The notes beneath the pieces were generated by a model. It saw nothing but the letters and a program-made list of their open reading frames with translations. It ran no database searches and was not told the DNA's origin. The translations under genes were made by a program, and so were the position numbers. Of a stretch of DNA of 64,000 bases, positions 7,371 through 61,360 are shown one piece after another. Each line of letters begins with the position of its first letter. Positions within the stretch are counted from its first letter, which is position 1. The stretch is from Octopus sinensis (taxonomy: Eukaryota): contig NC_042999.1 in assembly GCF_006345805.1 (NCBI RefSeq), positions 72,788,001-72,852,000 of the forward strand. Reading direction: 5' to 3'.

Positions 7371-8550
7371 TTACTCGACTTCTGGTTTCTGTCTATGATA
7401 AGCATCAAGCATTACTTTCTTTGGATGTCTGACAAAAAATAATTTCTCTTTGGTAGATGTCAACTTGTTGTTATCATTTGCATTGTCCTTGGGTTCTAGC
7501 GATGTACTCTCTAATTTGGGATCGCTGTTTCGCGTTTTTCTTTGCGGTTTTTCTCCAACAATAAGCGAATGGACCAAACAATGACTGCTGTTCGTGTTGA
7601 ATTTCTGCTGCAAGAATCTACACAAAGGAGCTTTATCCGCTGGCCGATAAGCATCTCTGCACGTACACACCAATTTCGCCGTCTCTCTCAGGAGGTCAAT
7701 ATCTTTTTTCAACAACTCTCGCATCAAGATATTCTTTTTAATTGGTTTAGCTTTTATCAGGGATCCGTGAACTGGATAGATTGATTTCCAATCGACATTG
7801 ATAAAGCCCTGGTTCACTTTTGAAGGATAATTTTCCCCTACATCACTAGACACTTCTCGAATATTCTCTTTGTTGTTAAATCTTGATCGGGAATTATTAG
7901 TAATGTTAAGCATTCCTTTACAATTTCGTTGTAGTTCCTTTTTGTATTTCAAGGACGTTCCATTTTTCATAATCATTGTTCTTTTCTTTTGTTTGCTCAA
8001 TTTTTTACTGTTTTGAATAGGAACTTTACATTTTCTTTCTGAATGACCATACGTTTGCAGAACACGTCGAGTTGAAGTTTTCCCACTTGATGATGTTGGT
8101 ACTGTCGACTTTTCTGCTGTTTTTCGTTTAGCTAAAAAATTAACAGAATCATTGTTCTCTTTGGAGTGTAGCTTTTCTTGATGAGATCTTGCATTTAATG
8201 TTAAACCCGATTTCTTACCTGATGTTGGAGTTGATGAATATATTTGAGGGTTAGTATTTTTCTCTTTAGGTAAATAATGAGGTAGCTGCTTTTTATGGTT
8301 AAAATTCAGTTTTTCCGGGCGGGTACCTGCATTTTTTTTATCAGTAGCTACAATACAGGTTTTTGTTCGGCTTAGTGGCACCGTCTGACTAGTTTTGTCG
8401 TTTGTCTTGTTTCCACTGACGTTAACATCATTCAGTTGGTTTCTGTTGGGTTTGTTTGAACGACAAAAAGTAATTGTTTTCTTCGTGAGATGCAACCAGT
8501 TCTTAAAAGGTGTGCCACCTGCTTCTGCTCCATTGTTAACACTGGTAGTC
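7371..8550 (-). CDS. Large probable terminal coding exon, Lys/Ser/Asn-rich protein of unknown function
   Basis: About 390 open codons in non-repetitive sequence. The frame stays open upstream of the TTG at 8495 up to an acceptor TTTCTTGACAG (AG at 8552-8551) and is closed shortly beyond it. Confidence 0.6.
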
Positions 8551-8663
8551 CTGTCAAGAAATTGAATATTTTAAATTTTCTATTACGACTCTTTGATAAC
8601 AAAGCGAGGCGATAAACAATAGGCGAAGGCAGTTGGTCTCCAGCCCTAAACATTCTCTATATC

Positions 8664-15866: not shown

Positions 15867-17057
15867 CTATCTCAAACTAATTTTAATTTCACGCAAATCA
15901 TAGTTATATATATACTTACATAAAAAACCTGTTTGTGTCAAAATGTCTGGCATCTGGGCTGTTAACTTCCGGGGACACAAAATAACTGGCTGATCCCAGT
16001 TTGTTTCTTGATTGCTCCAGCTGTTTAAGGTAGTTATATGAAATTGCCATCTCAAAATATCTTTTACAGTCAGTGACATAGCAGGAAACACGTTTAAGAG
16101 GGCGTGTATTGGCACATAAGCTTGTCTCTGTCCTCTGTTGTCAGTTCTGATAAATCCTGGCAGGTTATACATTAAACCGTCAGCACCGGAGAACGGTAAA
16201 AGGCTAAGCGAATATAATTCAGAAGTAGAGCCCTGGAAATTGGCGCTGTTGATAGTGTTATTTGTATTGGCTATGGAATGGTAAAGTGAAAATAAAGTGC
16301 ACGAAGAAGAAGATGGGTCCTTCGTGGCCCAATGTTTTTTAACAACCATTTCAACCAAGCACGACCAATGGAATATAACTTGTTTTAAATTGACAATAGT
16401 ATCCATTTTAGGAAGCATTTGAAATTTGCTGAGAAACCTTGATTGCTGTTTGGAAGAACACGTATAGATATTCTGCGTTATTAAAGGATACTTCAGCTTT
16501 AGACGAAGGCAGTTTAACACAATGGTACAGTTTTTTCCAGTACAACCGGGAAATAGAACATCTCTAATATCAGACCAACTAGCCATGGGATTTCCTTGCA
16601 CAGAGATATGAGGGACAGACCATATGATCTGATTGGGTAATTTTGCTATAGAGTCACAAGACGGTAAGAAACTAGAGTTCAATACATTATCTATGTTTGA
16701 TACTAACTGAGAAGCTCTACAATTTAAACTGGATGCATCTTTGCTTATGACATGTTTCCAACGAACCAACTTGTTTAAATTCTGCCTATTCTTCCAAACA
16801 TCTTCCAAGTTAACTATAATAATTCCAGTATCAACAATCTGGAAATTTTCCAGGAATTTGGCTCGCTCACTGCTGGAACATTTGTGAATATTTTTTCGTT
16901 GCAGAGGATATTTCAAAGTGAATTTTAAACTATTTAGAACGATAGTGCAGTTTGATTCAGAACAATCTGGAAACAGGGTGATTTTTACATCTTGCCAATT
17001 AGCCATTTGAATATTACCCACATTTATATGTGGTATGCTTCTTATAAGATCTTCCAT
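15867..17057 (-). CDS. Uncharacterised protein exon with a tandemly duplicated domain of about 110 aa (Ski/Dachshund-like pattern)
   Basis: 396 open codons from ATG. Residues 5-113 and 145-253 align without gaps (50/109 identical by hand count). Acceptor TTTTATTTTGCAG ends at 17114. A GTAAGT donor at 15919-15914 suggests the gene may splice onward. Confidence 0.8.
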   Translation of the reverse strand: MEDLIRSIPHINVGNIQMANWQDVKITLFPDCSESNCTIVLNSLKFTLKYPLQRKNIHKCSSSERAKFLENFQIVDTGIIIVNLEDVWKNRQNLNKLVRWKHVISKDASSLNCRASQLVSNIDNVLNSSFLPSCDSIAKLPNQIIWSVPHISVQGNPMASWSDIRDVLFPGCTGKNCTIVLNCLRLKLKYPLITQNIYTCSSKQQSRFLSKFQMLPKMDTIVNLKQVIFHWSCLVEMVVKKHWATKDPSSSSCTLFSLYHSIANTNNTINSANFQGSTSELYSLSLLPFSGADGLMYNLPGFIRTDNRGQRQAYVPIHALLNVFPAMSLTVKDILRWQFHITTLNSWSNQETNWDQPVILCPRKLTAQMPDILTQTGFLCKYIYNYDLREIKISLR

Positions 17058-17360
17058 TCAGAAAATTTACTGGTAGGAATAATTGACACAAAAACCTATG
17101 TTTCTTCTAAAAACTGCAAAATAAAACAGAAAAGACATATCCTGAAACAAGCTTCTTTAGACTACACATAAAAGACCTTATACATTTTCAATTATTATTT
17201 TTTTTCTAATAATCCTTTCTAAATATTACTTATGTGTAAATTTACTGCAACAAGAAGTCATTTTTTTTATTAACATAATGAACAGAGGGAGATCCCATAA
17301 CACTAACAAAATACTCCAAAACTGATTAAATTAATGTTCAGTGATAAACCAAAAAATGAA

Positions 17361-17819
17361 AAGACTTCCTCCCGCCCCGCCCCATTTTCTCGCAATTTTT
17401 TTTTTTTTAAACCCACGTTTTCGGATACGGAGATTCCGGAAAGTTGCCAAAAATCGGAATTTTGAAATTTTTGCTTCCACTTACTCCCTCCCACCAATTT
17501 CTTCATTTTTCACTTTTTTCCGTAAACCTAACCCTAAAACCCCAACCCTATTCCTAACCTTAACCCTAACCCCAAGTAGAAAAAGTTTTGGAATTTTTTT
17601 TCAGAATCATAATCTCCGTATTTTTCCGCATATTTTGAAAAAAAATTCTGAAAAGAAGTTTAAAATGAAGAATTTAGGTGGGGTGGTAATTTCGAAATGC
17701 CTGTTTTTGCCAATTTTTTGGCAGATTCGTATTCTCTGTAGCCGAAAACGGGGGTTTGTGTATAAAAAAAATTAAATTTTAAAAAAGTGGTGTTTGGGGG
17801 AGGGTGCAAAAGAAGTCTT
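17361..17819. mobile_element. Diverged foldback element C with an internal (CCCTAA)-like tract
   Basis: Imperfect inverted arms at about 17409-17510 and 17662-17758; telomere-like tract at 17525-17575. Confidence 0.6.
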
Positions 17820-17937
17820 GCCAAAAAAATAAAGAACATAAAAGAAACTGACAAATGAAGATGTCTCAATTTATGGAGAAACTGCTTCCGTGTGTGTGTG
17901 TGATAATTAGCATATATGTATATATTATATATATATA

Positions 17938-17987
<50 letters not shown>

Positions 17988-18399
17988 TACTTTATTATGT
18001 TTTGTTATGCCCGAGATTCCACCGTTCGATGAAAAATTCTCTTTCATGAAACGTGTCCGTTGTACGAAAAGGTTAGGCTCTCTTGTTAGGGTGATCACTA
18101 ACCAAACGCCAGTAAATCAACTACTCGAAAAGTAGCCTCCCTTATCAATGACTAATAAAAATTTTGGCAGGGTATTTTCCCTTCATGATTATTACAAACA
18201 ACATCATTGTCGCTAACGTGAATTTCCTAATAAGAACTGACCTTAATTCAGTCCCAGCAGAGACTTCACAGCACACCTACGATTGGATCTCTACTCGTGA
18301 AGCGCATCTGAAAGATCACAGACATGCACCAAGTAAATCATTTAAGTAAATCAGTAAAGAAACATAAACAGATTCTACAGAATACATTAGTTTCGAATT

Positions 18400-18580
18400 T
18401 TTTTGGCACAAAGCCAGCAATTTCGGGAGAGGTGGGTAAGTCAATTATATCGACACCAGTGTAAAACTAATACTTATTTTGTCGTCCTCGGCAGGATTTG
18501 AACTCAGAGCGTAAAGACGGACGAAATTCCGCTAAGTGTTCTGCTCGGTGTGCTAGCGATTCTGACTGCTCACCACCATT
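18400..18580 (-). mobile_element. tRNA-derived SINE, family 1
   Basis: Reverse complement of the family 1 consensus. Confidence 0.75.
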
Positions 18581-18807
18581 ACAGTAGAATTACATTAAGG
18601 GGTCACTCTATTCGACTACACACATGAATTAAAAGCGAGGCGCGCGCGGTCTGAGGTGTGCATGGGACTTCTTCCTTGCACGAATAAAGCAAGTGATGCA
18701 TGCCAATGATATAAAGCTAATGCAAATAATAAATCAAAGTTTCATACAAATCTTTCATATTAGGAGAGACAACTAGAAACAGGGTATATATATATATACC
18801 CCACTGG

Positions 18808-18930
18808 GCAGAAGAGCTCCGCTCGAAACGTTAAACCCTCCTTCTTTCCTGAGCGTCCAATAATACTATATTTGTTCCACGTCCTCGCGTTGTTGTGTTT
18901 TTTGTGCTTTCATGTTTGGATTAACTTTAA
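18808..18930 (+). mobile_element. Penelope-like LTR fragment with a partial hammerhead
   Basis: GAAGA-GC-TCC-GC-TCGAAACGTT followed by a CT/T-rich tail. Confidence 0.4.
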
Positions 18931-18940
18931 CTATATGTAT

Positions 18941-19008
<68 letters not shown>

Positions 19009-19048
19009 ATATATATATAGTACATCATAAAACATATATGTATATTAT

Positions 19049-19209
19049 AGAGGCGCAGACGTGGCCGTGTGGTAAGAAGCTTGCTTCCCAACCACACGGT
19101 TCCGGGTTCTCTCTCAGCGTGGCTCCTTGGGTCAGTATCTTCTTCTATAGCCGCGGGGCGATCAAAGCCTTCTCGGTGGATTTGGTTGACGGAAACGGAA
19201 AGAAGACCG

Positions 19210-19274
<65 letters not shown>

Positions 19275-19280
19275 TGCGTG

Positions 19281-19328
<48 letters not shown>

Positions 19329-19555
19329 CGCGCGTGCGCGTGCGTGTGTGTGTGTGTATCCCCATCACCACTTCACAGCTCGTATTGGTGTGTCTACGTC
19401 TCTGTAACTTAGTGACTCGGCAGAAAAGACCGATAGAATATGTACCAGGCTTTTAAAAGAAGTACTGGGGTCGATTCATTGTACTAGAAATTCTTTAAGG
19501 CGATGCCCTAGCATGGTCGCAGTCTGATGGCTTAAAGAAGTAAGATAGATAAGAC
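19049..19555 (+). mobile_element. tRNA-derived SINE, family 2, with an internal (GT/GC)n tract
   Basis: GTGGCCGTGTGGTAAGAAGCTTGCTTCCCAACCAC head; related copies near 34634, 47090 and 62685. Confidence 0.75.
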
Positions 19556-20104
19556 ATAAAAGATATGCCTCGGATGAACGAGACAGTTATCTGCATCTAA
19601 AATACACCGAGGGATACTTTTGGCTTCTACATGTGTTAAGTTCTGGTTTCCACCATTTGTAAAACCAATCTACGTTTGCAGTTGCGTAGCAGCGGGAGTG
19701 CAAAGGGGAGATCACCCCCAGACGATATATTTATGAGGTTGGCGCTTTTGGCTCTGTTGCATAAGCTTGTATACGCTTGGCTGGCTGCCTAGTGGGGTAA
19801 ATTCAAAGATTACCACTGTGATGTGTATGTGTGTGTGAGAGAGAGAGAGAAAGAATGAGTGTGTGTGTGAGAGAGAGAGAATACGAGTGAGTGTGTGCGT
19901 GGGTGAGTGTATGTGTGTGTGAACGTACGTGCGTGCGTGAGTGTGTGTGTGTGTGTGTTTGAGTGTCTGCATGTGTGTGTATGTGTATGCATGTTTGCGT
20001 GCGTGCGTGTGTGTGTACGCGCGCGTATGTGGTGTGTGTGTTTGAGTGTATGCTCGAGTCTATGTGTGGGGGAGGGGTGCTTGCGTGTGTGTGTATGTCT
20101 GTGC

Positions 20105-20139
<35 letters not shown>

Positions 20140-20748
20140 TGTGTGCGAGTGTGTGTGAATTACAGGCGCATTTCACTTTCAAACGGAAAATATGAAGAAA
20201 ACTACTTTACCTTGTCTTATTCATGAGACTAGTGTATAACAAAATTATGAATAATAATTTTTTTAAAAAACGCTGAAAGCATTAGTTTGAATTTTTAAAG
20301 TTTTTAAATACTACTAATTAAAATCACAGTACGCATAGATATCCATTACAATACGTTAAAAACCCTTACACAAATACGCATATATAAGCCATACATACAT
20401 AAGAGAAACGTTTGTCTTTAAACGGACACAGAGGTATTTCCTTCATAGCTGCCTTTGTAGTGTAAGGTCCTTGCATGTACATCGTAAAGTTGACGAAGAT
20501 AAAAATGTGAGACATAAAACTAGATTGCTTTTATCTTTGACATTATCAATGAATTATTGCCCCTTTAAAATAGAGTTGCTTCCCTTGTATTAAGATCTTG
20601 CAATTAACGTCATAACTTGTAACAAAACATATATATATCAATGTACACTTCAGTCCATGAACTATAAACAAAATTTACAACGAACTTGAGGAAGGAAATA
20701 GTAGAAGAATAGAATTTAGGAGATTCATATTTATCCTTATGAGAAAAG

Positions 20749-20809
20749 GATGTGAGTCAAGTCAGATATTAACTATAACTCATAGTTAATATCTAACTTG
20801 ACTCGCATC
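20749..20809. repeat. Short hairpin (arms of about 28 bp)
   Basis: GATGTGAGTCAAGTCAGATATTAACTAT versus ATAGTTAATATCTAACTTGACTCGCATC. Confidence 0.85.
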
Positions 20810-20842
<33 letters not shown>

Positions 20843-20843
20843 A

Positions 20844-20897
<54 letters not shown>

Positions 20898-20910
20898 ATG
20901 TATATATATA

Positions 20911-21103
20911 AAGGGTACTATTCAGCACCAGTATTGATAGAAATTAGTCAAAACAACTCAATAACCACAAATAACACTATCTTACTGAGCTGACAAGGGA
21001 GACAAGCTTGTCTCCCTTGACAGCTGATTAAGGTAGTGTTTCTGTGGTTATTGAGTTGTTTTGACTCTTATTTCTAGCAATACTGTTGCTGATTGCTGCC
21101 CTT
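20911..21103. repeat. Loopless imperfect palindrome of about 190 bp centred on AAGCTT
   Basis: The arms are reverse-complementary; CTGACAA-GGGAGAC near the centre resembles the 5' half of a hammerhead. Confidence 0.85.
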
Positions 21104-21172
21104 CGTTCACTTTAGTGACGTATATATTTCTGCCTTTAGGTTGTACAATTGCGAATTAGCCACCCATATTAT

Positions 21173-21249
<77 letters not shown>

Positions 21250-21290
21250 TGTGTGTGTGTGTGTGTGTGAGTGTGTGCGTGTGTGTATGC

Positions 21291-23514
21291 TAGGTTGAGT
21301 CAAAAGCTTTTTCCAGATTTTCACTGATGATTTTTAGCAACTTGTATCACCATGTTATGTCATTAAGATTTTTTCCTTTTGACCGACAGATTTTTAAAAT
21401 AATTTTTTGTAACTAAACACTTTCTAACTTCGTATACTTGTAGAATGTGTCACATAAAACATCTTTTACTCTTGGCGTTGTTGAGAAAATTCTGTAATTT
21501 GGAAGTTATTTCTTGTTAAAGTTGTCGTATTTCGGTAATTTCAACCAATCAATGATGAGTATTCAGCTGAATAAAATTACTGCTGTTGTTTGTTAACAAC
21601 AACTATCGGCGGTGTATATTTCGTTTGTCACTGTTACTTATGACATCGTTCGTGTATTCGGACTGGTTTTAGCTTTAAGGTTTTAGGGTTAGGGTTTTAG
21701 GGTTAGGGTTAAGGTTTTAGGGTTAGGGTTAGAGTTAGGGTTTTAGAGTTAGGGTTAAGGTTTAGGGTTAGGGCTTTCGGGTTAGGGTTAGTGTTAAGGT
21801 TTTAAGGCTAGGGTTAGGGTTAGGGTTGGGGTTTTAGGGTTAGAGTTACGGAAAAAAAATTTTAATGAAGCACGAATGATTATGGTGGTGCCATGAAGTA
21901 AACATGCTTCAGATACACTCGTTTATTCATACAAACGTAACTGAGATGAAATATGTCATAAATAACAGTGACAAACGAAATATACACCGCCAGAAGTTGT
22001 TGTTGACATACATCGGCTGTAATTTTATTCCGCTGAAAACTCGTCATTGACTGGTTGAAATTACCGAAATACAACAACTTTAACAAGAAATAACTTCCAA
22101 AATACAGAATTTTCTCAACAACGCCAAGAGTAAAAGATGTTTTATGTGACACATTCTACCAGTATACGAAGTTTGAAAATGTTTAGTTACCAAAAATTAT
22201 TTTTTTTAATCTGTCGGTCAAAAGGTAAAGATCCTATTATTAATTTGATGCAAATTGTCCAATCGTTGCTGAATTGTGTATTCTTTATTTTCATATATAA
22301 CATATAAACATTAATTATTTATACTTTATTTAACAGCTTGGATAATGAGTGGTGCGAAAATTGCAATTAGACCCATTTTACGCTACATGTAGAAGAAAAA
22401 GACAGTGAGTGCGGTGGCAACAGTAAAACAAATTAATGATATGGAAATCCCAGGAATGGTCAACGAACGTGTGGCACAAAATGGTTTAAATGTTTCAAGG
22501 AAAGTGACACTTTCCTCAAAGACAACTTAAGGTTGAGGCGACCTTCTGTCGTTGAAAATGAAGCCTTGTTTGAAATGGTTGAACAACAGCCAAGCACAAG
22601 CTTATCTACAGAACTTGGTCCTTCACAAAGAATCGTCAATCGACACTTCCATAAGCTCGGCCTTGTGAATAGACGCTGTCAAGAAGCTCCTCATGAACTG
22701 GCCAATGACCAGGCTCAATGACCTGGGAACATTTGCAAACAACTGCCTCAAGATACCTTTTGTGGTGGGGGGGGCGTCGAATTGCAAACGGGGATGAAAA
22801 TGAATCTTTAGTAATCCTTTGGGGACTGCCAGAACGATGTAGATGCCTCTGATGAGAACCCAATAAGGTTCGGAAATCGGTCAAGGATGTTCATTCTTTT
22901 AAACGGCAATGCATCAGCATGGCCGCAGCACTGAGCTGAAACTAGAGAGAGAGAAAAAAGAGAAATCAGTGGCTTCGTTACAGTCAGGCCTCAGAACTTG
23001 TTGTCAAACAAGGGCAGTTTGAACGGAAGGTCATATTGTGTGTTTGGTGGAATTTCGAGGAATGTAGCGCTTTGAGCTTATCTCATATGGTCACACTAAG
23101 AACTCTAACCTTTATCCTTAACAACTACAGCTAGTATATGATGTTTTGAAAGCCCGCTAATCGTCACTGGTCAATCGAAAACGCACATTCCTACAACATG
23201 ACAATGCTCCAGCACACACTCAGCCAATGTGTTGGGTTGGAAGTCTGCCTTACCCTGCTTATTCCGAGCCATGACTCATTTCCTGTACGAACAGAGGTTC
23301 AGCAATGTGGATGAGGTTGAAAACAGGTTCAGGGTGTTTTTTTTTCCTCGAAACTAACTAAATGTTATAAGCGTGGAATTGAACATCTGGCACAATGATG
23401 ACAACAGACGATAGAATACAATGGGATATATTTTGATGAATAGACGCTTTTCGTACGTAACTGTTTGAGCTATTAATTAAAGCTTGAAACACGAAAAAAC
23501 TTTTCACTCAACCT
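21291..23514 (+). mobile_element. Decayed mariner element containing nested foldback element A
   Basis: TIRs AGGTTGAGTCAAAAGCTTTTT and AAAAAACTTTTCACTCAACCT. Transposase remnants KWFKCFKE..RRPSVV, APHEL, GDE, VWWN and QHDNAPAH, with stops. Confidence 0.85.
21366..22234. mobile_element. Foldback/MITE element A with TIRs of about 280 bp and an internal (TTAGGG)-like array
   Basis: Arms at 21366-21646 and 21953-22234; TTAGGG/TTTTAGGG tract at about 21676-21848; flanks TGTCATTA and TATTATTA (6/8 match, degenerate TSD). Confidence 0.9.
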
Positions 23515-24203
23515 GCCATAGTAGAAACCATCAGTTTTTAATGTGTAATTCATCTAACCAAAATCGATAAAATACGTATTAGTCAAGTTTGAGGTCGAAA
23601 GACTTGACACAGATCTCCGCCTTTATTAGGCATCAGTAATGGGTTATGTTCCTTTATAATTTGAGCTTAAATTCCGTAGGGGTCAATATGTAAGGAAAGG
23701 GTGATATAATTGACTGAACTATCCTCCAAAATACGAGACTTTATACCTATGTAGGAATTCAATATTATCATTACTTTGTTTACGCTCTCATTTTCACTGT
23801 TCTATATATCCACATTCAAATGGCCAGTTTTCGTCAAATTTTGCTTGTGTTTCTCGGAGTCGTGTCGTTTTGCAAACATTTTACCATAAATTTGATATCT
23901 TATGAACTGCCGTGCATTGTTCATGATCTGTATCTCGATCTTATTAAACAGTGCCCAGTCAGTAGAGGGAATATTTATTACTTAGTCAATTCGGCGTTAC
24001 CTCTCTTAGCAGTGTTCGATGCTGATGAGAAGATTACTTAAAAAGGCTTGTATCTATTGACATGGGTAGAGAGCGCTCCGAACTGACCTGGTATCTACAG
24101 TGAGAATATTTCTCGATGGCAAAACGCTGTAAATAGCCTTCTTATGGGTTCGAATGAGTATCAAACATACTTCAAACTAGACATATACATACATACATAC
24201 ATA

Positions 24204-24312
24204 CTGGTCTTTAAAGCTAAATGGTGAAAGCAATTAACATGTTTAGATCTTATTAAACCTCATCAGCAAAGGTATATCCAACTAATATAGCAATCGAGGT
24301 GTGATATATATG

Positions 24313-24346
<34 letters not shown>

Positions 24347-24427
24347 TGTATGTATGTATGTATGTATGTATGTATGTATGTATGTATGTATGTATGTATT
24401 ACATGTATGTATGTATGTATGTATGTA

Positions 24428-24459
<32 letters not shown>

Positions 24460-24559
24460 CACACCTCGATTGCTATATTAGTTGGATATACCTTTGCTGA
24501 TGAGGTTTAATAAGATCTAAACATGTTAATTGCTTTCACCATTTAGCTTTAAAGACCAG
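24204..24559. repeat. Perfect inverted repeat of about 105 bp around a (TATG)n/(CATA)n core
   Basis: The arms look identical by eye; each contains CTGATGA-GGTTT..AGATC-TAAACATGT. Confidence 0.9.
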
Positions 24560-25169
24560 ACTCCTTTCCAATCTGCATTGTATTGTCTAAAATTGTCGAT
24601 TAAGTTGATCTTATTGGAGTTACCTTGTTCTGCCAGTTATTTTAAACACTCTCAGGGGGAGTTTCGTTTACTAATTGCTGAGATAATCTCTGTTGATTGA
24701 AGTTTTTTCATATCGCTTTATAACATACGAGAGAATATGACGTATTTTTGTATTTAGTTTACAGAACGCTCCCCTGATGTCGATTCGCACAGCCATGTTG
24801 TTGAGAATCGTTAGAGCGTCAAGCAAAAATGCCTTATTGTATTTCATTGAATTCAAATCTTGCTGAATTTAACTTCCTCTTTCGTTGAATGGTAAGACTG
24901 ATGCCGTTAATGTTTGGTTTAAACTGTTACAGATGAGCATCTCGAAGGACATGAGCAAGGAGAAGATTCTAGAGGATCAATGATCTGGCGAGGAAGGGCA
25001 TTAGGTGGGTAGCGCAGGGCCAAGGAGGTTGGACGCAACAAAGGTGACAAGGTGGAGTGAGATCAGTGAGCCAGTATTCTTGAGTGGAGGAGATATAAGA
25101 TCGGTCAGCTTCAAGGATGAGAAAGTCGTTATTAGTTCTTTGGGAAGTGGTTAGTTGCTTACATAGACC

Positions 25170-25530
25170 CTAGAGCTTGATTGGTACTATATTTTATCAA
25201 CCTTGAAAAGTAAAATTGACCTTGGCAGCATTTGAACTCGGAACGTAGAGTCACAAGAAATGCTGCTAGGCATTTGTCAACGTGCTAACAACTCTGCCAA
25301 GTCGCCGCCTTTATATTGCGTTCAAATTTTTGCACAAAGCCTGCGATTTCGGGGGCCGGGGTAAGTCGATTACATCGACCCCAATGTTCGATTGGTACTT
25401 ATTTTATCAACCTCAAAAGAATGAAAAGCAAAGTCAACTTCGGTGGAAGTTGAACGCAGCACGTAAAGACGGACAAAATGCCGCTAAGTATTTTGCTTGG
25501 CATGCCTACGATTCTGCCAGCTCGCCACCT
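25170..25530 (-). mobile_element. Two tandem family 1 SINEs
   Basis: Two reverse-complement heads ending at about 25310 and 25530. Confidence 0.7.
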
Positions 25531-27454
25531 TTTGTCACTCTTTATATTTGCAGCAGGTAAGACAGAAAGAAGATGCAGCACTTCTTTGGGGCAGAGGTTA
25601 GGGTGTGTTTGTTGATTTTATCTCAATTAGTCGAATAGCCCTTCACGGGGTGTGATCTAGTATGTACATGCGAAACAGTACCGTCCCAATTTGAATCATG
25701 CTTACGTTGAATTTGCATTTCCCCCATCCAGGATTCACAAAAGGAAATACCACTCAAGTACTAGGACCCGGTTATAGACCATATCCATTTCACAAAAATG
25801 TATAACTGTGTGCCTTATGTTAGGAACTAGATTCAACGAGGGGACGGGGTTGGCTTCTACATTGCTTTTCAGGTGGATTTAACTGAAGACGAAAAAGCTA
25901 AATGTTCCCCAGCTAAACTCCTCCTTTCTCGTCGTTAACCACAACAAAGATAATACAATCGCTTGATAAAAAATACTAGACAGTTACTTCCATTGATCTG
26001 CTCGAATACAACTGACTGAAGTTACTCAACAGCTTCACGAATAATCATGATCTTACGATTAGCAATAAAAAAAAAGACATTTTTAAAAAAAATCCCATAT
26101 AATCGAATACTTAATGTTCAGAAAAAAAATCTAAACTAAAAAAAACAAAATATGAATTATAAATAATCGAATTATAAATATTGTGATTTTTTTTTCCAAT
26201 GAATATACTTACAGATCTGAGTTAAAGAATGAGTAATAAAATAAACATTTACAATAACAACGCTGTTTGTATAACACACACATACACACACGCACACACG
26301 AGTGTTGTTCATACAGCATATATTCATATATACATACATTTATGTTTGTACGTGTGTGTGTGGTGTGCGGACCGCATAGGACGTTCGAAAGTATGTTACG
26401 TTTAAGGTAGGGAAGACAGTCAAAATACAGAATCCGCCACTGGTCTACCGTATATAATTTACTTATATGTATGTATGTGAGTGTGTGTGTGTGTGTATGT
26501 ATGTGTATGTGTGTGCGCGCGTGTGTGTATGCGTGTGCGTGTGTGTGTTTGAGGCAACTTTATTATGTGAAGAAAACGTAACTGACGCCCATGCGAGTAG
26601 GCACGTCAATTTAAAATATATGTTGATTCTCATCGTCATGGAAACTAAAATTTGTTGCTTTCTGATTGGTCAACTCGTATTCTATTTCACCGCATGGGTT
26701 CAAAATCCCATATTTTACTGGCGAAAGTGGTTTCTTTTATTCTTTATTCATCGAAGAAAAAAAGGAAGAAATAAATATAACTTTAAAAATGTTTTATAAA
26801 TCAGTTAAAAAAAGGTTAGAATGTTGTGTGGGTAAAACTAAAGTTACAATGTTATGTTCAGCTTGTGTGACTCAGTCAGCTAGGGTGGTGAATATTAAGT
26901 GGTATAGATTGGTTTGCAGATGAAGATGAAAGCATCGCCTCAAAACCTTTAGTGGCTGGTTGGATTTACACCTCTCGTAGATGTATCGAAAGCACATTCA
27001 CCTTGTTAACTTCATCCATCGCTCTCTGGGTTGTTTACAAAAAAGAAAAGAAAACGGAAATTGAGTGAAAAAGCTTCAAACTGGGAATCGAACTCGTATT
27101 TACTGAATCGCTTGCGAACTCACGAGCAATTAGTTGAATCTTAATTACAGGAATATTTTTGTTTCAACAGATTCCTGACCCTAACAAACATAGCAGGTTA
27201 GTTGTGATGGAGTTTATCTCATCTTTCACTCGTATTAAGTAGTTTGAAGATAACTCGCCTTTCCAGGAAGGAAGGTCAACCTACATGTACAACGCAGACG
27301 TTTGAATTCAGCCAACACCGCAAGCCTAGCCTGACATTGTACTAAATACTCTTTTGGGACATCCTTTTTTCTTTCTTTCTTTCTTTCTTTTAGTTTCCTC
27401 TCTTGTCTTCTCTCTGTAGTTGCTCGACCTGTTTGCAATGGTCCTAGATCCGTG

Positions 27455-27758
27455 AAGGCGTATGACCAAGTAAGAATATTCGGCTCACGATCGTAAGGTC
27501 ATGAGTTCGATACACAGCGGCGCATTGTGTCCTTGAACAAGACACTTTATTTCACGTTTTTCCAGTCCACTCAGCTAGCAAAAATGAGTTGTACCTGTAT
27601 TTCAAAGGGCCAACCTTGTCATATTCTGTATAATTCAGAATTTCCCAGAGAACTACGTTAAGGGCACACGTGTCTGCGGAGTGCTCAGCCACTTGCACGT
27701 TAATTTCACGATCAGATCATTTGGAATACTAATCGTCATAACCAATGGAGTGCCAGTC
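27455..27758 (+). mobile_element. SINE (family 3 variant)
   Basis: GAAGGCGTATG head and GAGTTCGAT B-box; the body matches 43670-43850. Confidence 0.7.
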
Positions 27759-27759
27759 T

Positions 27760-28589
27760 GGATCTTTTCCTTTTGAACGGCATATGTCAACACAATTTCC
27801 ACGTAACTAAACACTTTTAAACTTCGTATACTGGTAGAATGTGTTTATAAAACATCATTTTTTCTTGGCTTTATTGAGAAAATTCTATAGTTTGTAACAT
27901 ATTTCCTCTTTAAAATCGAGCATTTCAGCAATTTTAACCAATCAAATACGTCCATTTGGAGTGAAAACATACCATGCTATATGAATGTGCCCCTCGTTTA
28001 AGAAACAGATTGGGTTTATTTACATTTGCGAAGAAAAAAAGACCCCCCTTCCCCCAGCCCTAACCATAACCCTACTCCTAACCCTAACCATAACTCTAAA
28101 CCTAACCCTAAAATAGATTGAAATGCAATAGCTCGATACTAGGGTTATAATTATGGGTGGCAATTTCATACGACACCGCTACGGAAAATGGGATTTTTTT
28201 CTAGCGGTGTCAAATGAAAATGTCACCCATAATTATAATCTATTCAATCTATTTTAGGGTTAGGTTTAGTTAGAGTTAGGGTTAGGGTTAGGGGTGGGGA
28301 AAGGGTATCTTTTTTCTTCGCAAATGTAAATAAACCCAATCTGTTTCTAAAACGAGGGACATATTCATACAGCACAGTATGTTTTCATCCCAAATGGACG
28401 TATTTGATTGGTTAAAATTGCCGAAATGCTCGATTTTAAAGTGGAAATATGTTACAAACTATAGAATTTTCTCAATAAAGCCAAGAAAAAATGATGTTTT
28501 ATAAACACATTCTACCAGTATACGAAGTTTAAAAGTGTTTAATTAACTAGAAATTGTGTTGCAAACTGCCGTTCAAAGGGAAAAGATCC
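27760..28589. mobile_element. Foldback/MITE element B: 830-bp near-palindrome with telomere-like tracts in both arms and an 8-bp TSD
   Basis: Ends GGATCTTTTCC..GAACGGCA and TGCCGTTC..GGAAAAGATCC; exact TSD GCCAGTCT at 27752-27759 and 28590-28597; CCCTAA tract 28058-28110 and TTAGGG tract 28253-28293. Confidence 0.93.
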
Positions 28590-31049
28590 GCCAGTCTTAG
28601 ATCACATTGTATCATCTTTGAAGGGAAGAGTCCTAGATATGTAAAAACACTGGATGATCAGAGCTGCACTGTATTACGTATTTCACCACGAGTATAGCGA
28701 GACTCGAAATTGAATCGTCGAATTACGAATTAAAGTCATGACATAACAATGGCTTGTTCACATGACAGGCCGAGTTATTTGCCAATCAGCAGCCAGACTT
28801 TACGTGATAGATTAATCTAGATTCTAATGGAGCTATTCCTTACAAGGGTCATATAAAGGCTAGTTTTAGCACCAATTTTCAGAGTGTGTTAACCTGAGAG
28901 CTTGCCATAAACACTCGCCTTTGTAATAAACGTTTTCAGTTCGGATTGGATATGACGATTTAGCTGGCCGAAATTAATCTACTGTGTATATTTTCTCCTG
29001 TCTTGGCAGGGAAAAACTAATTACGAATGCTACAGAATTATTCCTTCGATTGTGTTAAAATTTTATAATTCATGCGGTGAAACAAAGTTATTATTAAACG
29101 TTGCTTGATGGCATTATATCATTGACTCGCAGCTTCATGTGCATATAACCAACCTGCTATACAACGTTCGTAATTTAAATCCCTATTGAATCAGAATCAT
29201 CTTTTAACTCCGATCATAGACTAGTTGATAATCCGATACATTATGGCTTTTTACACATGCATAGAGAAATTTTAACACATAGCTTTCGAATCGTGACTGC
29301 CCGTCATTCTTTTTAAAGATTTTTTTTTTTAAATTAGTATCAACCAAAGTGTTTAGTTCATGACCATCCTGTCTTTTTTAAAGAATTTTCAATTGTGTTT
29401 ATTATCTCTCCAACATATGCCTCTTGCAAAAGATTCAACAATCATATTACCAGAGAATGTAATTTTGTCACGAATTGACTGACATTCATCCTCACTAAAG
29501 ACAGACACTGAAGATCAACGGGATTGTAACAATCTTGACGCTAACCATAAACTCAAAACTAACCCAAAACACTAATCTTGATGCCAATACTAACCTTTAA
29601 TCCTAACTGAAAATTAAACATCATAAATTATATTAAATTTTATTGTGCTTCCTTGCATGAGTGTTTATGAAAAATTTCTGTTTTGGAGCGTGAAGTCTGG
29701 GATTGCTAAAGTACTTGTAGCATACTGAACAAGTTCAATTGATCATATCACTCTACAAAAACCAGTATTGTATCTTGTCAACACGAAATCAATAATATTT
29801 TGTTCACACTGTTTGTCATAAATTCTACAGCTAAGCAAACTGGACTATTAAAAGTTATTATATTATATTATCATGGCGGCAAATAGGCCAAGTTGTTAAG
29901 AGTGTCAGATAAAATGATCTGCAGTATTCGTTCTGGTTCCCTGCACTCTGACTTCAAATACTGCCGAGTTCAACTTTGCCTTTTATACTTTCGGAATCAA
30001 TAAATAAGGGATATTCGTTTGTTTTATGGATAGCAAGTGTTAAAATTTTGCCATCTGATTTCCCGACACATGACATCATTCTCGGCCGTTTACGATGTGT
30101 TCGGTAATGTCTTTCATGTGCTGGAGATAGCCGAACACATACTCGCACATGCAATCTTCATATTTTTTAACGATTTACTTCTATTTCTATAAACTGCTAA
30201 GAATGACGTAGTATACTGAGAAATCAGTTGGCACAAACTTGACCTTTGTCATACGTAAAACGAAAGAATGCAATAGATAGACACCCATACAAGTGTGTCC
30301 CCCACCGCTGACTTTGTTTCCTCATAACTTTCAGAAAATTGACATTTTTTAATGAAATTTTCTACAAATACGTTTTAGATCGTATAGATTCTGATTATTA
30401 TGATATTTGTTTTGAAACATTTTTCATGGGAAGAGGGGAGGGGAGTTTCAGATAATTCACCTGAGTCGGCTTTGTGTCCCCATAAGTGTCAGGAAAATAA
30501 GGTCCATCCCCACCCCGCCAGAAATTCTCTACACATTCAGATACCTTTCAGATGGTGCCGATTACGATTATATTCGGAATTTGACATGGAAAAAATGTAG
30601 ACTCGCATATAGGCATACTGACATACATCACATATATCTACAAAATGAAACTGGAAATTTTGAAAAAATATTATGTCAGTATGTATGTGTTCGTGACCGT
30701 TAATTTTTTTTTTTACATGGTGGTGATGGCGGTGGGGAGGGTGACGACGACGACTTTAATATTGTTGAATTATGCTAAAAATACCAACAGAAAAAATAGC
30801 ACACATAACGTCAATGATAAAGATGCCCATATATTAGTTCAATGTGGCTTCAATTATCTTATTGTAAAATTGCCCAGTTTAACACCCACCACCACCACAC
30901 TTATTTATTGTGTGCCTTTATAGGCTTAACAAGCCACCCAGTTTAAATTTATTGATATATTTATCCCATATTAGTAACCTTTAATTCTAGTTCCTGAAAC
31001 CTAACCACCACAGGCTGGAATAAATTAAATTATAGAATACGTATATAAG

Positions 31050-39860: not shown

Positions 39861-41349
39861 GTGCTATTTTGCAAATTATGTATTTAAAATGGCCGTCAAT
39901 AAAATAAAACGGAAAACGATTTTTCTCCAATAAAATAATTTCAGATGAGTATAAAATAATGATTTATTGAGTTTAGATACTTGGATTTTCGCCAAAATCC
40001 TAATGATCCAAATGATTTATTTATATTTCATTTTATTTTTTGGTAAAATCCAGAAATCGAAAGAAAATCATTTTTTTTGCCACGATTGACAAAACCCATC
40101 GCTGATTATAACACATCGCTGAATCACAAATTAATCCGATGGATGCAAGTAACTCAATTGTGCAATCAATATCATAAGTTATCTGGTGAACATCTCGTAG
40201 AAAGTAATTGGTTTGAGTCAGATCTTCATTATTAACAATCTCTGCTACGATACTTACACTTTCGAAATTACACGATCAGCCAATTCTTCATTACGTAAAC
40301 AATTCAGAAAAGAAATATAAATAATTAAGTTCTGTTTTTATTGACAATGTAAATTTTCTAATATATTTGTTCTTTATTCGCTTTATTTCTAACCTTTTAA
40401 CTAAAGGAAATAAAACTGAATAAAGACGAATTTAGGACACAGCTTTCTAGTCAACATCAGCAGATAGACGGGATCCCTTTAGTTTCGATCACAGATTTTT
40501 TAATAATTTTTTTTTCCTGAATGTGCGTCCATTGCCACGTAAAGTAACAAGTTGTGTTTTTTTTTTCAGATGACGGCTCCACAAATTTAAACAGTATTGA
40601 TATACCTTGTAGTGTCAGAAATGTCAAGGGGAAAGTAAAATTATGGAATAAAATTATGGAATAAAAGTTCGTCAGTCATATATGATAGTATAAAATAAAT
40701 TTACTTTATTATGCAAATAACTTGTAGATGATACGCTTTCATCTTTACATCAAAGCATTGTAGGTAAAGTACTAAATTTCATATTTGTATTTAGATTTTT
40801 AACTAGGACTTAAAGTCAACTCTGCCCAACACACTCAGGAAACACTACCATGGAAAATCCAAGGAGTTACCTTCTTTACTAACAAAAGTTGATCTCAGTC
40901 AAGTTACTTCATCTACATCATAGGAACTCTTTCATAATTTAATAATACTTTACAGTTTCTGATAATTCTCATCATGAGTCTAGTACATCAAGAAAGAACT
41001 TAGCTCACTAATATGTCCAATAAAGAATCTCCTTTGAAGCAATACATTGCCAAGACTTCACTCATCAGTAATGTCTCAGTGATTAGATACATGTTTTCAT
41101 ACCTAAGAGATTCTGAGTAATGGCCATGTTAGTCATTAAATGTCCAGGATGTTGGTAGAGTTTTTAAAGCATCAGATTGAATAGTTTCCAGTATTTGTTC
41201 ATGTTGCCAGGGCTCTGAGCTCAAATCCTACCAAGACCAATCTTGTCTTTCTTCTTTGGCATATGTCAGAGAATACCAAATGCATCAATCCTGTACTGGA
41301 ATCCATTTTCTTATGACTGTCTCATTTTTTCTCTTCTTTGGAAGAAACC

Positions 41350-56496: not shown

Positions 56497-59385
56497 CATC
56501 ATTTGACGTAGAAGGGGGTATAGCTACACATGGGGTAGAAGACAACTGGCCGATTCTAAGGGACAACCTGCTGAAAGCCACTGACCAGATCTGTGGCTGG
56601 TGCAGTCCCCTCAAGACCCAAAATAACATGGTGGTGGAACAATATTGTTGACAGGGCTATTAGACAAAAGAAACAGGCTTGGAAGGACTGGAAGAACAGT
56701 GGTAGCAGGGAAGTGTATCAGACTGCCAGAAGGGAAGCTAGGAGGCAGGTGTGTTTAGCCAGAGGGGAAGCAGATAAGAAAAAATTTGCCAATGTTCTGC
56801 GCCGTGAGGATGAAAGACTTGAGGTATTTCGTATTGCAAGACAGTGTGTGAGAGAGAATCATGACGTGGTAGGAGAGAAATGTGTTTGCAAGGATGACGG
56901 TGCACTTGCGCTAAATGAGGATGCAAAGAGAGAGGTTTGGAGATGCCACTATGAAAGGTTGCTGAATGAGGAAAATGAATGGGATAAAGAGAGTCTGCCG
57001 AATGTCGACCCAACAGAGGGACCAGCAATCCGAGTTGACAGTTCCTTAGTAGTTAAGGCAATTACAAGCATGAAAACAGGGAAAGCCCCAGGCCCATCAG
57101 GAATTACTGCAGAGATGCTCAAAATATCTGGTAGTGTCGGCTAAAGCCTAGTCACCCGTATAATTAACCAGGTGATACACGAAGGAGTCATACCCAATGA
57201 CTAGTGTAGCAGCATAATAGTCAACTGCTACAAAGGTAAAGGTGACACCCTAGATACAAATAACCACAGGGGTATCAAGCTGCTGGATCAGGTAATGAAG
57301 GTTACGGAGAGGGTTATAGCCCAACTAATTAGAGAGAGAGTTAGCTTAGATGAGATACAGTTTGGGTTTGTGCCAGGGAAAAGTACTACTGATGCTATAT
57401 TCCTGGTAAGACAGCTGCAGGAGAAATACCTAGCCAAAGATAAGCCCCTGTACCTGGCTTTTGTTGACATGGAGAAAGCCTTCGACTGGGTTCTCCGATC
57501 CCTTATCTGGTGGTCAATGAGGAAACTAGGGATAGATGAATGGTTAGTGAGAGCTGTGCGAGCCATGTACAGAGACGCTGCTAGTAAGGTGAGGGTTGGC
57601 AACGAGTACAGTGAAGAATTCCGGGTAGAGGTTGGGGTCCACCAAGGTTCAGTCCTCAGTCCCCTCCTATTTATCATAGTCCTCCAGGCAATAACGGAGG
57701 AATTCAAGACAGGATGCCCCTGGGAGCTCCTCTATGCTGATGACCTTGCTCTAATTGCTGAGTCACTATCAGAACTGGAGGAGAAGTTTCAGGTGTGGAA
57801 GCAAGGATTAGAATTGAAGGGCCTTAGAATCAACCTAGCCAAAACCAAAGTCCTAATAAGTAGGAAGGTAGACCAATCACAAACACCTTCAGGTAGATGG
57901 CCCTGCTCGATCTGTAGTAGAGGTGTAGGTAGAAACTCTATAAGGTGCACCAAGTGTAAGCTATGGACACATAAGAGGTGCAGCAATGTCAAAGGAAGGC
58001 TAACTAGGAAAATAGTTTTTGTCTGTGGCAGATGCTCAGGAGCAATAAACACTGAAAATGTGCAGAGACCAATTTCTACCACGTTCCAGGGAGAAAAACT
58101 AAAAGTAGTTGATAGCTTCCGCTACCTAGGTGACCAAGTCAGTAGCGGGGGTGGGTGTGCTGAAAGTGTAACTGCTAGAGTAAGAATAGCCTGGGCAAAG
58201 TTCAGAGAGCTCCTACTCCTGCTGGTGACAAAAGGCCTCTAGCTCAGAGTAAAAGGCAGACTGTATGATGCATGTGTACGTACAGCCATGCTTCATGGTA
58301 GTGAAACATGGGCTGTGACTGCTGAGGATATGCGTAAGCTCGCAAGAAATGAAGCCAGTATGCTCCAATGGATGCATAATGTCAGTGTTCATAATCGACA
58401 GAGTGTAAGTACCTTGAGAGAAAAGTTGGACCTAAGAAGCATCAGTTGTGGTGTGCAAGAGAGACGTTTGCGCTGGTATGGTCATGTGACGAGAATGGCT
58501 GAAGATAGTTGTGTGCAAAAGTGCCACACCCTAGCAGTTGAGGGAACCTGTGGAAGAGGTAGACCCAGGAAAACCTGGGACGAGGTGGTGAAGCACGACC
58601 TTCGAATTTTAGGTCTCACCAAGAACATGACTAGAGACCGAGACCTATGGAAGTATGCAGTGCGTGAGAAGACCCGGCAAGACTAGTGAGACCACAACCC
58701 GTGGCCTCTACCTGGTATGTAGCCAGTCGACTTATACATACCTTTCCTTCTTGGGACACAAAACTCCACTTGTGAAGACCCGTTGAGGCAAGTGAAAATC
58801 AAAATCAAACCAAATCAAATCAGATATCAGAACCAAAATCGAAGTCGATCAACATCAATGGAAATTGCAGCTGTGATACCAGTGCCGGTGACAAGTAAGC
58901 GAACCATCCGATCGTGGCCGTTGCCAGCGCTGCCCCGACTAACCTCCGTGCCTGTGGCACGTAAAAAGCACCATCCGTTCGTGGCCGTTGCCAGCCTCGC
59001 CTGGCCCCCGTGCTGGTGGCACGTAAAAAGCACCATCCGTCCGTGGCCGTTGCCAGCCTCGCCTGGCCCCCGTGCCGGTGGCACGTAAAAAGCACTATCC
59101 GATCGTGGCCTTTGCCAGCCTGGCCTGGCCCCCGTGTTGGTGGCATGTAAAAAGCACCATCCGTCCGTGGCTGTTTGCCAGCTCTGTCTGGCACCTGTGC
59201 GGGTGGCACGTAAAAAGCACCCACTACACTCATGGAGTGGTTGGCGTTAGGAAGGGCATCCAGCTGTAGGAACACTGCCAGATCAGACTGGGCCTGATGC
59301 AGCCTTCTGGCTTCACAGACCCCAGTTGAACCGTCCAACCCATGCTAGCATGGAAAGCGGACGCTAAATAATGATGATGATGATT
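56497..59385 (+). mobile_element. 5'-truncated RTE LINE with in-frame stops; RT with an inserted PHD-type zinc finger; repeat-rich 3' UTR
   Basis: TWWWN, GKAPGPSG, QFGF, FVDMEKAFD, GVHQGSVLSPLLF, YADD, FRYLGD, RRLRWYGHV and GRGRPRKTW; stops at about 57142, 57202 and 58240; UTR repeats of about 60 bp; (ATG)n tail. Confidence 0.95.
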
Positions 59386-59765
59386 TAGCGTCCGCTTTCC
59401 ATGCTAGCATGGGTTGGACGGTTCAACTGGGGTCTGGGAAGCCGGAAGGCTGCACCAGGACCAGTCTAATCTGGCAGTGTTTCTACGGCTGGATGCCCTT
59501 CCTAATGCGAACCACTCCGTGAGTGTAGTGGGTGCTTTTTATGTGTCACTGGCACAGTTGCCAGACGGGGCTGGCAAATGGCCACGGTCAGATGGGGCTT
59601 TTTACGTGCCACCGGCACGGAGGCCAGACGAGGCTGGCAACGGACACGATCGGATGGTGTTTTTTATGTGCCACCGGCATGGGGGCCAGGCAAGGCAGGC
59701 AACGGCCATGATCAGATGGTGCTTTTTACGTTCCACCGGCACGGGGGCCAGGCGAAGCTGGCAAC
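59372..59765 (-). mobile_element. Short RTE 3' fragment, tail-to-tail with the preceding copy
   Basis: Reverse complement of the tail and UTR repeats. Confidence 0.9.
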
Positions 59766-59772
59766 AATATAT

Positions 59773-61308: not shown

Positions 61309-61360
61309 ATGAGGAAAAAAATAGTTCTCGATTATCAGAGGCAGAGTAATATGTTTTGTT

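What the first reader, a model, noticed from the sequence alone, without database searches (positions are those of the whole stretch)
17361..28597. Three distinct foldback elements that each carry internal telomere (TTAGGG) tracts
Seen: elements at 17361-17819, 21366-22234 and 27760-28589 have long inverted arms and telomere-like arrays, although their interiors differ. A and B share GGATCTTT.CCTTTTGA ends and a subterminal block (TAACTAAACAC..AACTTCGTATACTGGTAGAATGTGT..TTGAGAAAATTCT). A and C share a tract boundary of the form TTAGGGTTAG..TTACGGAAAAAA. Established: TTAGGG is the common metazoan telomere repeat, and 5'-GG TIRs with 8-bp TSDs are typical of Merlin/IS1016 transposons. Inference: this is a superfamily of non-autonomous DNA transposons that retains telomeric tracts across divergent families. 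It would spread interstitial telomere-protein or G4 sites and could seed telomere healing after hairpin breakage. I cannot tell whether it is already catalogued.
Basis: partly seen in the sequence, partly recalled or inferred. Interest (0 to 1): 0.72.

Follow-up and report, generated by a model that had tools for sequence, protein, structure and literature searches.

The report
Octopus mini-transposons spreading telomere-like repeats
Three small gene-less jumping elements, likely of the Merlin type, belong to families with thousands of copies in this octopus genome, and these families hold about nine in ten of the short internal telomere-type repeats sampled on one chromosome, most likely as passive cargo with no shown telomere function.

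Summary
Confirmed. The window holds three foldback MITEs (17358-17822, 21366-22234, 27760-28589) with GG..CC consensus ends. Flank identity peaks at 8 bp in all three families, and 63 of 77 paired-end genomic copies carry a TTAGGG-type tract. The shared end of the second and third element occurs 5,552 times. On 66 Mb of one chromosome, 61 of 66 sequence-checked (TTAGGG)3 sites lie in these or sister MITE families. The first element shares about 80% of its arm with Merlin transposase relics. No matching autonomous partner was found for the other two. The tracts are not one inherited module: one was likely captured from family E1 by E2, and two other contexts exist. They are short, decay no slower than the arms, and mix in TTTTAGGG. 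In the third element they face the wrong way to heal a central hairpin break, and 0 of 13 long arrays start at a MITE. Best reading: likely Merlin MITEs amplifying repair-filler tracts as neutral cargo. The scan noted this before in another octopus genome (e1-9814440). Dfam and Repbase could not be checked.

The parts
17358..17822 (.). E1: non-autonomous foldback element, family consensus ends GGAAAGACTTCC / GGCAAGACTTCC, arms 74-77% complementary, copies about 12% from consensus
17350..17357 (+). E1 left target duplication (caaaaaat; right copy aaaaaaat at 17823-17830)
17526..17575 (-). E1 degenerate TTAGGG/TTTTAGGG tract, placed where E1 stops aligning to the arm of transposase-bearing Merlin relics
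17501..17525 (-). E1 arm segment next to the tract (TTACGGAAAAAAGTGAAAAATGAAG); a near copy follows the tract of E2
21366..22234 (.). E2: foldback element, about 280-bp arms at 91% complementarity, consensus ends GGATCTTTACCTTTTGA, copies about 5.7% from consensus
21358..21365 (+). E2 left target duplication (tgtcatta; right copy tattatta at 22235-22242, 2 mismatches)
21675..21845 (+). E2 tract of alternating TTAGGG and TTTTAGGG units with variants; length 44-360 bp among parsed copies
21846..21870 (+). E1-derived arm segment inside E2, the mark of a likely sideways capture of the tract
27760..28589 (.). E3: near-complete palindrome (consensus 95% self-complementary), ends GGATCTTTTCCTTTTGA; likely an inverted duplication of the right 410 bp of an E5-type parent
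27752..27759 (+). E3 left target duplication gccagtct (exact right copy at 28590-28597)
28058..28113 (-). E3 left tract (CCCTAA on +; G-rich strand points to the left end)
28252..28293 (+). E3 right tract (TTAGGG on +; G-rich strand points to the right end)
28294..28310 (+). G-rich box next to the tract; a tract-free form lies upstream of Merlin transposase relics elsewhere in the genome

Best explanation
These are three copies of high-copy, gene-less cut-and-paste transposons, likely Merlin derivatives, whose short telomere-type tracts likely entered a few founder elements as repair filler and were then multiplied as passive cargo. SHOWN: GG..CC ends, 8-bp (rarely 9-bp) target duplications, thousands of copies, tracts in most copies, no transposase inside, and these families holding most sampled short (TTAGGG)3 sites. 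SHOWN: in E1 the tract sits where homology to transposase-bearing arms stops; E2 carries E1's tract with about 25 bases of E1's arm; E3 matches both orientations of the right part of a shorter single-tract family (E5). INFERRED: mobilisation in trans by Merlin transposases; founders formed by aborted gap repair after excision; tract seeded at G-rich subterminal boxes by telomerase or by slippage; capture between families by template switching; later length change by slippage or unequal exchange; neutral decay after insertion.
For: TSD: mean flank identity at 8 bp is 0.92, 0.78 and 0.74 (E3 18 paired of 30 loci, E2 15 of 30, E1 18 of 30) against 0.32-0.46 at 7 and 9 bp. In 26 paired copies taken by position from chromosome C1, 13 have an exact 8-bp TSD and 18 have at most one mismatch. 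Tract present in 17/18, 11/15, 16/18 and 19/26 (lenient rule of two clustered units; unpaired ends not scored). Merlin transposases are abundant (PF12762: 690 candidates, 150 scored, all over cut-off), and those with callable ends have GG ends and 8- or 9-bp TSDs. The E1 arm aligns to transposase relics at 167/210 (L193) and 175/225 (L147) columns, scores 212 and 190 against shuffle maxima 112 and 128; the L147 frame hits PF12762 at E 7.9e-14. The G-box beside the E3/E5 tract occurs without TTAGGG upstream of four transposase relics (L113, L114, L258, L188). Of 73 distinct (TTAGGG)3 sites on C1 0-66.5 Mb, 61 of 66 held lie within 200 bp of a family match, 5 do not, and 7 not fetched lie 240-420 bp inside an exact end; controls 5.0% of 539 kb and 0 of 54 kb. 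Tract mismatch is 7.4% against 4.8% in arms for E2 and 9.9% against 8.8% for E1. Variant units are repeated in tandem within single copies (L040). TTTTAGGG is 32 of 78 units in E2 but is not among the eight commonest units in five long arrays' stretches.
Against: No transposase gene was enclosed by a matched pair of E1 or E2/E3 ends in 100 transposase loci (some the same element fetched twice), so Merlin mobilisation of E2/E3 is not shown. The relics related to E1 have different terminal bases. Tracts recur in three end lineages and three contexts, more than one chance capture needs, which leaves room for selection on the element. The telomerase origin is untested: the Pfam search for TERT found nothing and its controls were also blank. 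The decay estimate is rough: 5 of 14 E2 and 2 of 16 E1 copies were skipped, four of the kept copies were mis-parsed, and variants fixed in a founder inflate it. The site sample comes from one third of one chromosome, and the E5 and E6 library entries were built partly from those loci (the E3 consensus, built independently, already caught E5 sites).
Confidence: 0.68

Rival explanations
1. The tract helps the element: telomere-binding proteins or a G-quadruplex would protect excised ends, favour germ-line reinsertion or blunt silencing, so tract-bearing founders were selected repeatedly.
For: Tracts occur in three end lineages (E1; E2-E5; E6) and three sequence contexts. E2 amplified after the likely capture. 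59 of 77 copies keep two or more TRF-type half-sites and 35 of 77 a canonical G4 motif (motif definitions recalled). Both double-tract families (E3, E4) have the outward, mini-chromosome-like orientation.
Against: Perfect runs are at most 4 units, and TRF binding at internal sites depends on length and conservation (PMC6410037 passage). Tract-free or tract-deleted copies with exact TSDs exist (L009, L058, L152, L209, L212), so the tract is not needed to transpose. Active-looking autonomous Merlins have no tandem tract. Other inverted-arm elements in the window have plain (TATG)n or (ACAT)n cores.
Confidence: 0.15
2. The tracts are not telomere-derived: they are microsatellites that grew by slippage out of G-rich subterminal boxes and only resemble telomere repeats.
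For: The tract-free G-box in transposase-linked ends and 0-4 units inside the same box in E6 copies give a graded series. Alternating TTTTAGGG units cannot come from a TTAGGG template.
Against: The unit converges on exactly TTAGGG in three contexts. The reversed 18-mer has 0 matches genome-wide against 12,929. Short pure TTAGGG inserts with no MITE also exist, as expected where telomerase acts at breaks.
Confidence: 0.2
3. One reading: the elements seed telomere healing after hairpin breakage and so drive chromosome truncation.
For: E3 folds almost fully on itself (89% paired in a DNA fold). TTAGGG is the only experimentally determined cephalopod telomere motif (PMC13218726 passage), and long TTAGGG arrays exist in this genome, three running into assembly gaps.
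Against: In E3 and E4 a central cut exposes C-rich 3' ends on both sides; telomerase extends G-rich 3' ends (established knowledge). 0 of 13 long or pure arrays with a visible start have a family match in the fetched stretch. 0 of 9 chromosome-end stretches hold a family match, though these ends lack telomeres.
Confidence: 0.05
4. E2 and E3 are mobilised by another 8-bp-TSD superfamily and only E1 is Merlin.
For: No Merlin with GGATCTTT ends in 100 loci.
Against: GG ends with 8-bp and occasional 9-bp TSDs (L033) match Merlin as defined in PMC8101967 and as seen in this genome's Merlins. E2 and E3 share sequence with E1, E6 and transposase-linked ends. Only part of the 690 candidates was examined.
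Confidence: 0.1

Closest known systems
Merlin superfamily and its non-autonomous derivatives (Feschotte 2004, not seen; as summarised in Lopes et al. 2021, PMC8101967, passages and supplement search)
   Same: Terminal GG, 8- or 9-bp TSD, TIRs of 24-462 bp, sometimes imperfect TIRs; internal tandem repeats that Merlin is proposed to spread; Merlin is noted as abundant in Octopus bimaculoides.
   Different: No transposase inside; the repeat is the telomere hexamer and is shared or swapped between families. That paper has no 'telomer' in text or held supplements.
Short interstitial telomeric sequences inserted at double-strand breaks (PMC6410037 and PMC8537989, passages)
   Same: Few TTAGGG units at internal sites; a likely origin as filler at a repaired break.
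   Different: In mammals each site is a separate insertion, and PMC8537989 finds no role of transposons in spreading TERC-ITS. Here a few founder tracts were copied thousands of times. PMC6410037 lists transposition by mobile elements only as a possible route, and for large blocks.
Octopus vulgaris curated repeat library (Bonar et al. 2026, PMC13282606; first third of the text, passages, supplement search)
   Same: 18 Merlin families covering 2.19 Mb, plus MITE and unclassified TIR classes, in the same genus.
Ciliate telomere-bearing transposons such as TBE1 and Tel-1 (recalled, not checked here)
   Same: DNA transposons that carry host telomere repeats.
   Different: There the repeats are terminal and the elements are autonomous; here they are internal, degenerate and in gene-less elements.

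Membership tests
Merlin superfamily | TIRs begin with 5'-GG | tested here: met
   Consensus of all families begins GG and ends CC; the window copies of E1 and E2 each have one mutated left-terminal base.
Merlin superfamily | 8-bp or 9-bp target duplication | tested here: met
   Identity peak at 8 bp in three families; exact in 13 of 26 position-picked copies and 15 of 26 E5 copies; exact 9 bp in L033, L345, L348.
Merlin superfamily | DDE_Tnp_IS1595 transposase in an element with the same ends (E1) | tested here: inconclusive
   About 80% arm identity to PF12762-bearing relics, but their terminal bases differ; no exact partner in 100 loci.
Merlin superfamily | DDE_Tnp_IS1595 transposase in an element with the same ends (E2, E3) | tested here: inconclusive
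   0 of 100 transposase loci enclosed by a matched pair, out of 690 candidates; only a roughly 20-bp G-box motif is shared with transposase-linked ends.
MITE / non-autonomous TIR element | Short, non-coding, TIR and TSD, high copy number | tested here: met
   465-869 bp; no transposase hit inside by tblastn; 5,552 exact ends; 708, 3,133 and 1,357 candidates.
Telomerase-inserted short ITS | One-step insertion of exact repeats at a break, shown with an empty ortholog | tested here: inconclusive
   The E1 tract lies at the end of homology with the autonomous arm, but units are mixed TTAGGG/TTTTAGGG and no direct tract-free parent was found.
Telomerase-inserted short ITS | Host has telomerase with a TTAGGG template | tested here: inconclusive
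   PF12009 search blank with blank controls; long TTAGGG arrays present; TTAGGG reported for one octopod.
Telomere-seeding element | New telomere arrays start at the element's tract | tested here: not met
   0 of 13 arrays; the assembly lacks true ends at the 9 ends sampled.
Named Dfam/Repbase family | Match to a catalogued consensus | not testable with these tools
   No repeat library is available here.

The most novel reading that the evidence does not exclude
Octopus Merlin MITEs have repeatedly acquired and swapped telomere tracts because the tracts recruit telomere proteins that raise transposition success, so a parasite of the transposase also exploits the host's end-protection system and has written most of the genome's internal telomere sites.
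Probability: 0.13. Interest if true: 0.8.

Novelty: new variant of a known kind. Interest (0 to 1): 0.42.

Why it matters
Short internal telomere repeats are usually explained as single repair events. Here most of those sampled come from a handful of founder tracts copied by transposition, which is direct sequence evidence for a route that a review lists only as a possibility. It gives thousands of dated, near-identical tracts in different settings, a natural panel for testing how length and purity set telomere-protein binding, G4 formation and repeat instability. It also warns that short-read telomere estimates and telomere-motif scaffolding in octopus pick up MITEs. Without a shown function it remains a repeat-biology result.

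Tried and rejected
Autonomous partner for E2/E3: 100 transposase loci scanned for inward-facing ends, none enclosed; single ends near transposases belonged to separate MITEs or fragments where they could be checked. A genome-wide search for long elements between two such ends could not be run. Longer GGATCTTT-ended copies (L152 1.2 kb, L056, L154) hold insertions or simple repeats, not transposase. TERT search uninformative. Nine chromosome-end stretches have no telomere arrays. Papers: nine searches gave no description of these families or of MITEs as the main source of short ITS. Passages of 10.1101/2022.01.04.475009, PMC7998251, PMC6800518 and PMC9498494 were read and add nothing. The library lacks most subscription papers; Repbase Reports and Dfam were not searchable. 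Earlier-finding look-ups by sequence and by relatives were blank. Rejected: assembly artefact (many independent flanks with their own TSDs) and telomere-fusion scar (each tract lies inside a TSD-bounded element).
Full report
Setting. The window is G000:C3:72788001-72852000 in a 2.72-Gb genome. An open frame at 15867-17057 matches an Octopus vulgaris hypothetical protein at 99% over 48% of the query, so the host is an octopus.

Observation. The three elements are real. End-anchored analysis gives E1 17358-17822, E2 21366-22234 and E3 27760-28589. E3 has an exact 8-bp duplication, E1 one mismatch and E2 two. Arms are 91% complementary over about 280 bp in E2, 93% in E3 and 77% in E1. The longest perfect TTAGGG run is 1, 2 and 3 units, so these are telomere-like tracts, not telomere arrays.

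Families. Searches with each terminal 140 bp gave 708 (E1), 3,133 (E2) and 1,357 (E3) candidates, of which 40 each were scored and 30 fetched. The 17-base end shared by E2 and E3 occurs 5,552 times, control 1. Both ends were found in 18, 15 and 18 of the 30 loci. Mean flank identity at 8 bp was 0.74, 0.78 and 0.92 against 0.32-0.46 at 7 and 9 bp. Two E3 loci (L016, L017) look like one insertion held twice. In 26 paired copies picked by position from the first 100 pattern matches, 13 had an exact 8-bp TSD and 18 at most one mismatch. A tract of at least two clustered units was present in 16/18, 11/15, 17/18 and 19/26, in all 63 of 77; unpaired ends were not scored. Divergence from consensus is about 12% for E1, 5.7% for E2 and 3-11% for the 14 true E3 copies of 18 aligned. 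Three sister families turned up. E4 has E3-like ends and its own tract flanks (7 copies, 2.7%). E5 is 429 bp and asymmetric with a 29-bp TIR and one tract (26 copies, 15 exact TSDs, 3.7%). E6 is 130-280 bp with GGCGAT ends (782 exact ends; 16 paired of 24, 7 exact 8-bp and 2 exact 9-bp TSDs).

How the families relate. E3 matches E5 positions 17-429 in both orientations at about 81% with tracts masked, so E3 is likely an inverted duplication of an E5-type right part, which explains its two tracts. E2 shares about 200 terminal bases with E3, E4 and E5 at 80%, yet its tract and the 25 bases after it match E1 at 90% over 83 bp. In E1 those 25 bases belong to the arm. E1 is the older family, so capture from E1 into E2 is the likely direction (inference). 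E3/E5 and E6 share a G-rich box beside the tract; E4 has a third context. The tract is therefore not one module inherited from a common ancestor.

Merlin link. PF12762 gave 690 candidates, 150 scored, all over cut-off. Elements with callable ends have GG termini and 8- or 9-bp TSDs and no tandem tract. This fits the definition in PMC8101967 (passages). One transposase clade (L147, L185, L192, L193, L195) has arms that align with E1 at about 80%, above 30 block shuffles each; the L147 frame hits PF12762 at E 7.9e-14. The alignment ends where the E1 tract begins, which is what filler at a deletion junction would look like. The terminal bases of these relics differ from E1's, so they are sisters, not proven helpers. 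One relic of this clade (L190) has a CCCTAA tract right after the transposase, between two copies of the gene's end. The G-box of E3/E5/E6 occurs without TTAGGG upstream of four transposase relics (output of 67 was cut and I use the part shown). No transposase was enclosed by matched E1 or GGATCTTT ends in 100 loci, some fetched twice. E2 and E3 are thus Merlin by signature only.

Do they spread internal telomere sites? (TTAGGG)3 occurs 12,929 times, reversed control 0; (TTAGGG)8 only 385 times. The first 100 matches, on C1 up to 66.5 Mb, fall into 73 sites. Of 66 with sequence in hand, 61 lie within 200 bp of a masked family match (E5 36, E2 8, E1 6, E4 6, E3 4, E6 1) and 5 do not; the other 7 lie 240-420 bp inside an exact end. 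The same rule covers 5.0% of 539 kb around transposases and 0 of 54 kb at chromosome ends. Limits: one third of one chromosome, and the E5 and E6 entries came partly from these loci, though the independent E3 consensus already matched the E5 sites.

Is there a telomere function? Tract mismatch is 7.4% (95/1,284) against 4.8% (239/5,003) in arms for 9 of 14 E2 copies, and 9.9% against 8.8% for 14 of 16 E1 copies; four kept copies were mis-parsed. There is no sign of conservation after insertion. E2 tracts run from 44 to 360 bp and repeat variant units in tandem, which points to slippage or unequal exchange, not telomerase, for growth. TTTTAGGG is 32 of 78 units in E2 and 11 of 23 in E1, but is not among the eight commonest units in five long-array stretches. 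Copies without a tract but with exact TSDs exist. 35 of 77 copies have a canonical G4 motif and 59 have two or more TRF-type half-sites (motifs recalled), so binding is possible but untested. For healing: in E3 and E4 the G-rich strands point outwards, so a cut at the hairpin tip leaves C-rich 3' ends, which telomerase does not extend (established knowledge). In E1 and E2 only one side could prime. None of 13 long or pure arrays with a visible start has a family match in the fetched stretch. The TERT search was blank with blank controls.

Mechanism. Most likely: a Merlin excises, gap repair aborts and leaves two arms joined by filler. At G-rich subterminal boxes the filler is TTAGGG-type, added by telomerase or grown by slippage. 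Template switching moves the module between MITEs and folds one end back on itself. Transposases acting in trans then multiply the founders, and copies decay. The anatomy, counts and homologies are shown; every enzymatic step is inferred.

Prior knowledge. Lopes 2021 reports tandem repeats inside Merlin elements and suggests Merlin spreads them, without mention of telomeres. PMC6410037 names transposition by mobile elements as a possible source of large internal blocks, and repair insertion as the source of short ones. PMC8537989 finds no transposon role for TERC-ITS. Nine searches found no description. Earlier unreviewed scan notes report the same kind of element in another octopus genome, and tracts in Ginger-like and hAT MITEs; I did not test those loci.

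Verdict. A real, quantified variant of a known kind: likely Merlin MITEs that account for most sampled short internal TTAGGG sites in this genome, with no evidence of a telomere role. Interest 0.42.

Noticed in passing
window 15867-17057 (-): 396-codon open frame starting with ATG 300 bp from E1; no Pfam hit; one match only, an O. vulgaris hypothetical protein of 580 aa. It appears to have two similar halves. A second frame without Pfam hit lies at 7371-8570 (-); both may be exons of one lineage-restricted gene.
   Followed up: partly
window 57653-61312: Large foldback with 1,055-bp arms at 93% holding reverse-transcriptase sequence (frame 57205-58242, RVT_1 and a weak PHD hit) around an inverted 62-bp satellite.
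   Followed up: no
window 24204-24559 and 30-492: Two more inverted-arm elements (132 and 113 bp, 99%) around plain (TATG)n/(ACAT)n cores; simple-repeat cores between arms are common here.
   Followed up: partly
L123, L129, L200 (G000:C5:62.8 Mb, C4:59.2 Mb, C18:28.0 Mb): Merlin elements of about 3.3 kb that are whole palindromes with two divergent transposase copies; L123 and L129 have clean 8- or 9-bp TSDs. The same foldback route as E3, in coding elements.
   Followed up: partly
L096-L098 (C2:154.56 Mb, C3:69.47 Mb, C6:47.09 Mb): Three 99% identical 308-codon Merlin frames on three chromosomes, identical over more than 3.3 kb with no TIR found; possibly carried inside a larger mobile unit.
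   Followed up: no
L190:2036-2190 (C16:43.21 Mb): CCCTAA/CCCTAAAA tract directly after a broken Merlin transposase, between two copies of the gene's 3' end; possibly an independent filler event.
   Followed up: partly
L003, L004, L012 (C27:15.73 Mb) and L260:13-936: GGATCTTT-type ends amplified as tandem arrays of about 200 bp and 103 bp: MITE ends turning into satellites.
   Followed up: no
C1:75.75 Mb, C7:51.92 and 101.41 Mb, C10:16.74 Mb, C6:66.5 and 98.1 Mb, C2:206.27 Mb: Degenerate TTAGGG arrays of several to about 20 kb far from scaffold ends, some running into gaps; fusion relics or misplaced telomeres.
   Followed up: partly
L142:3533-6764: An intact-looking Merlin inserted into the G-rich box of an E6 MITE, duplicating 8 bp of it.
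   Followed up: no
window 40087-40251: Weak Merlin transposase fragment (36% over 54 aa, E 5e-6).
   Followed up: no
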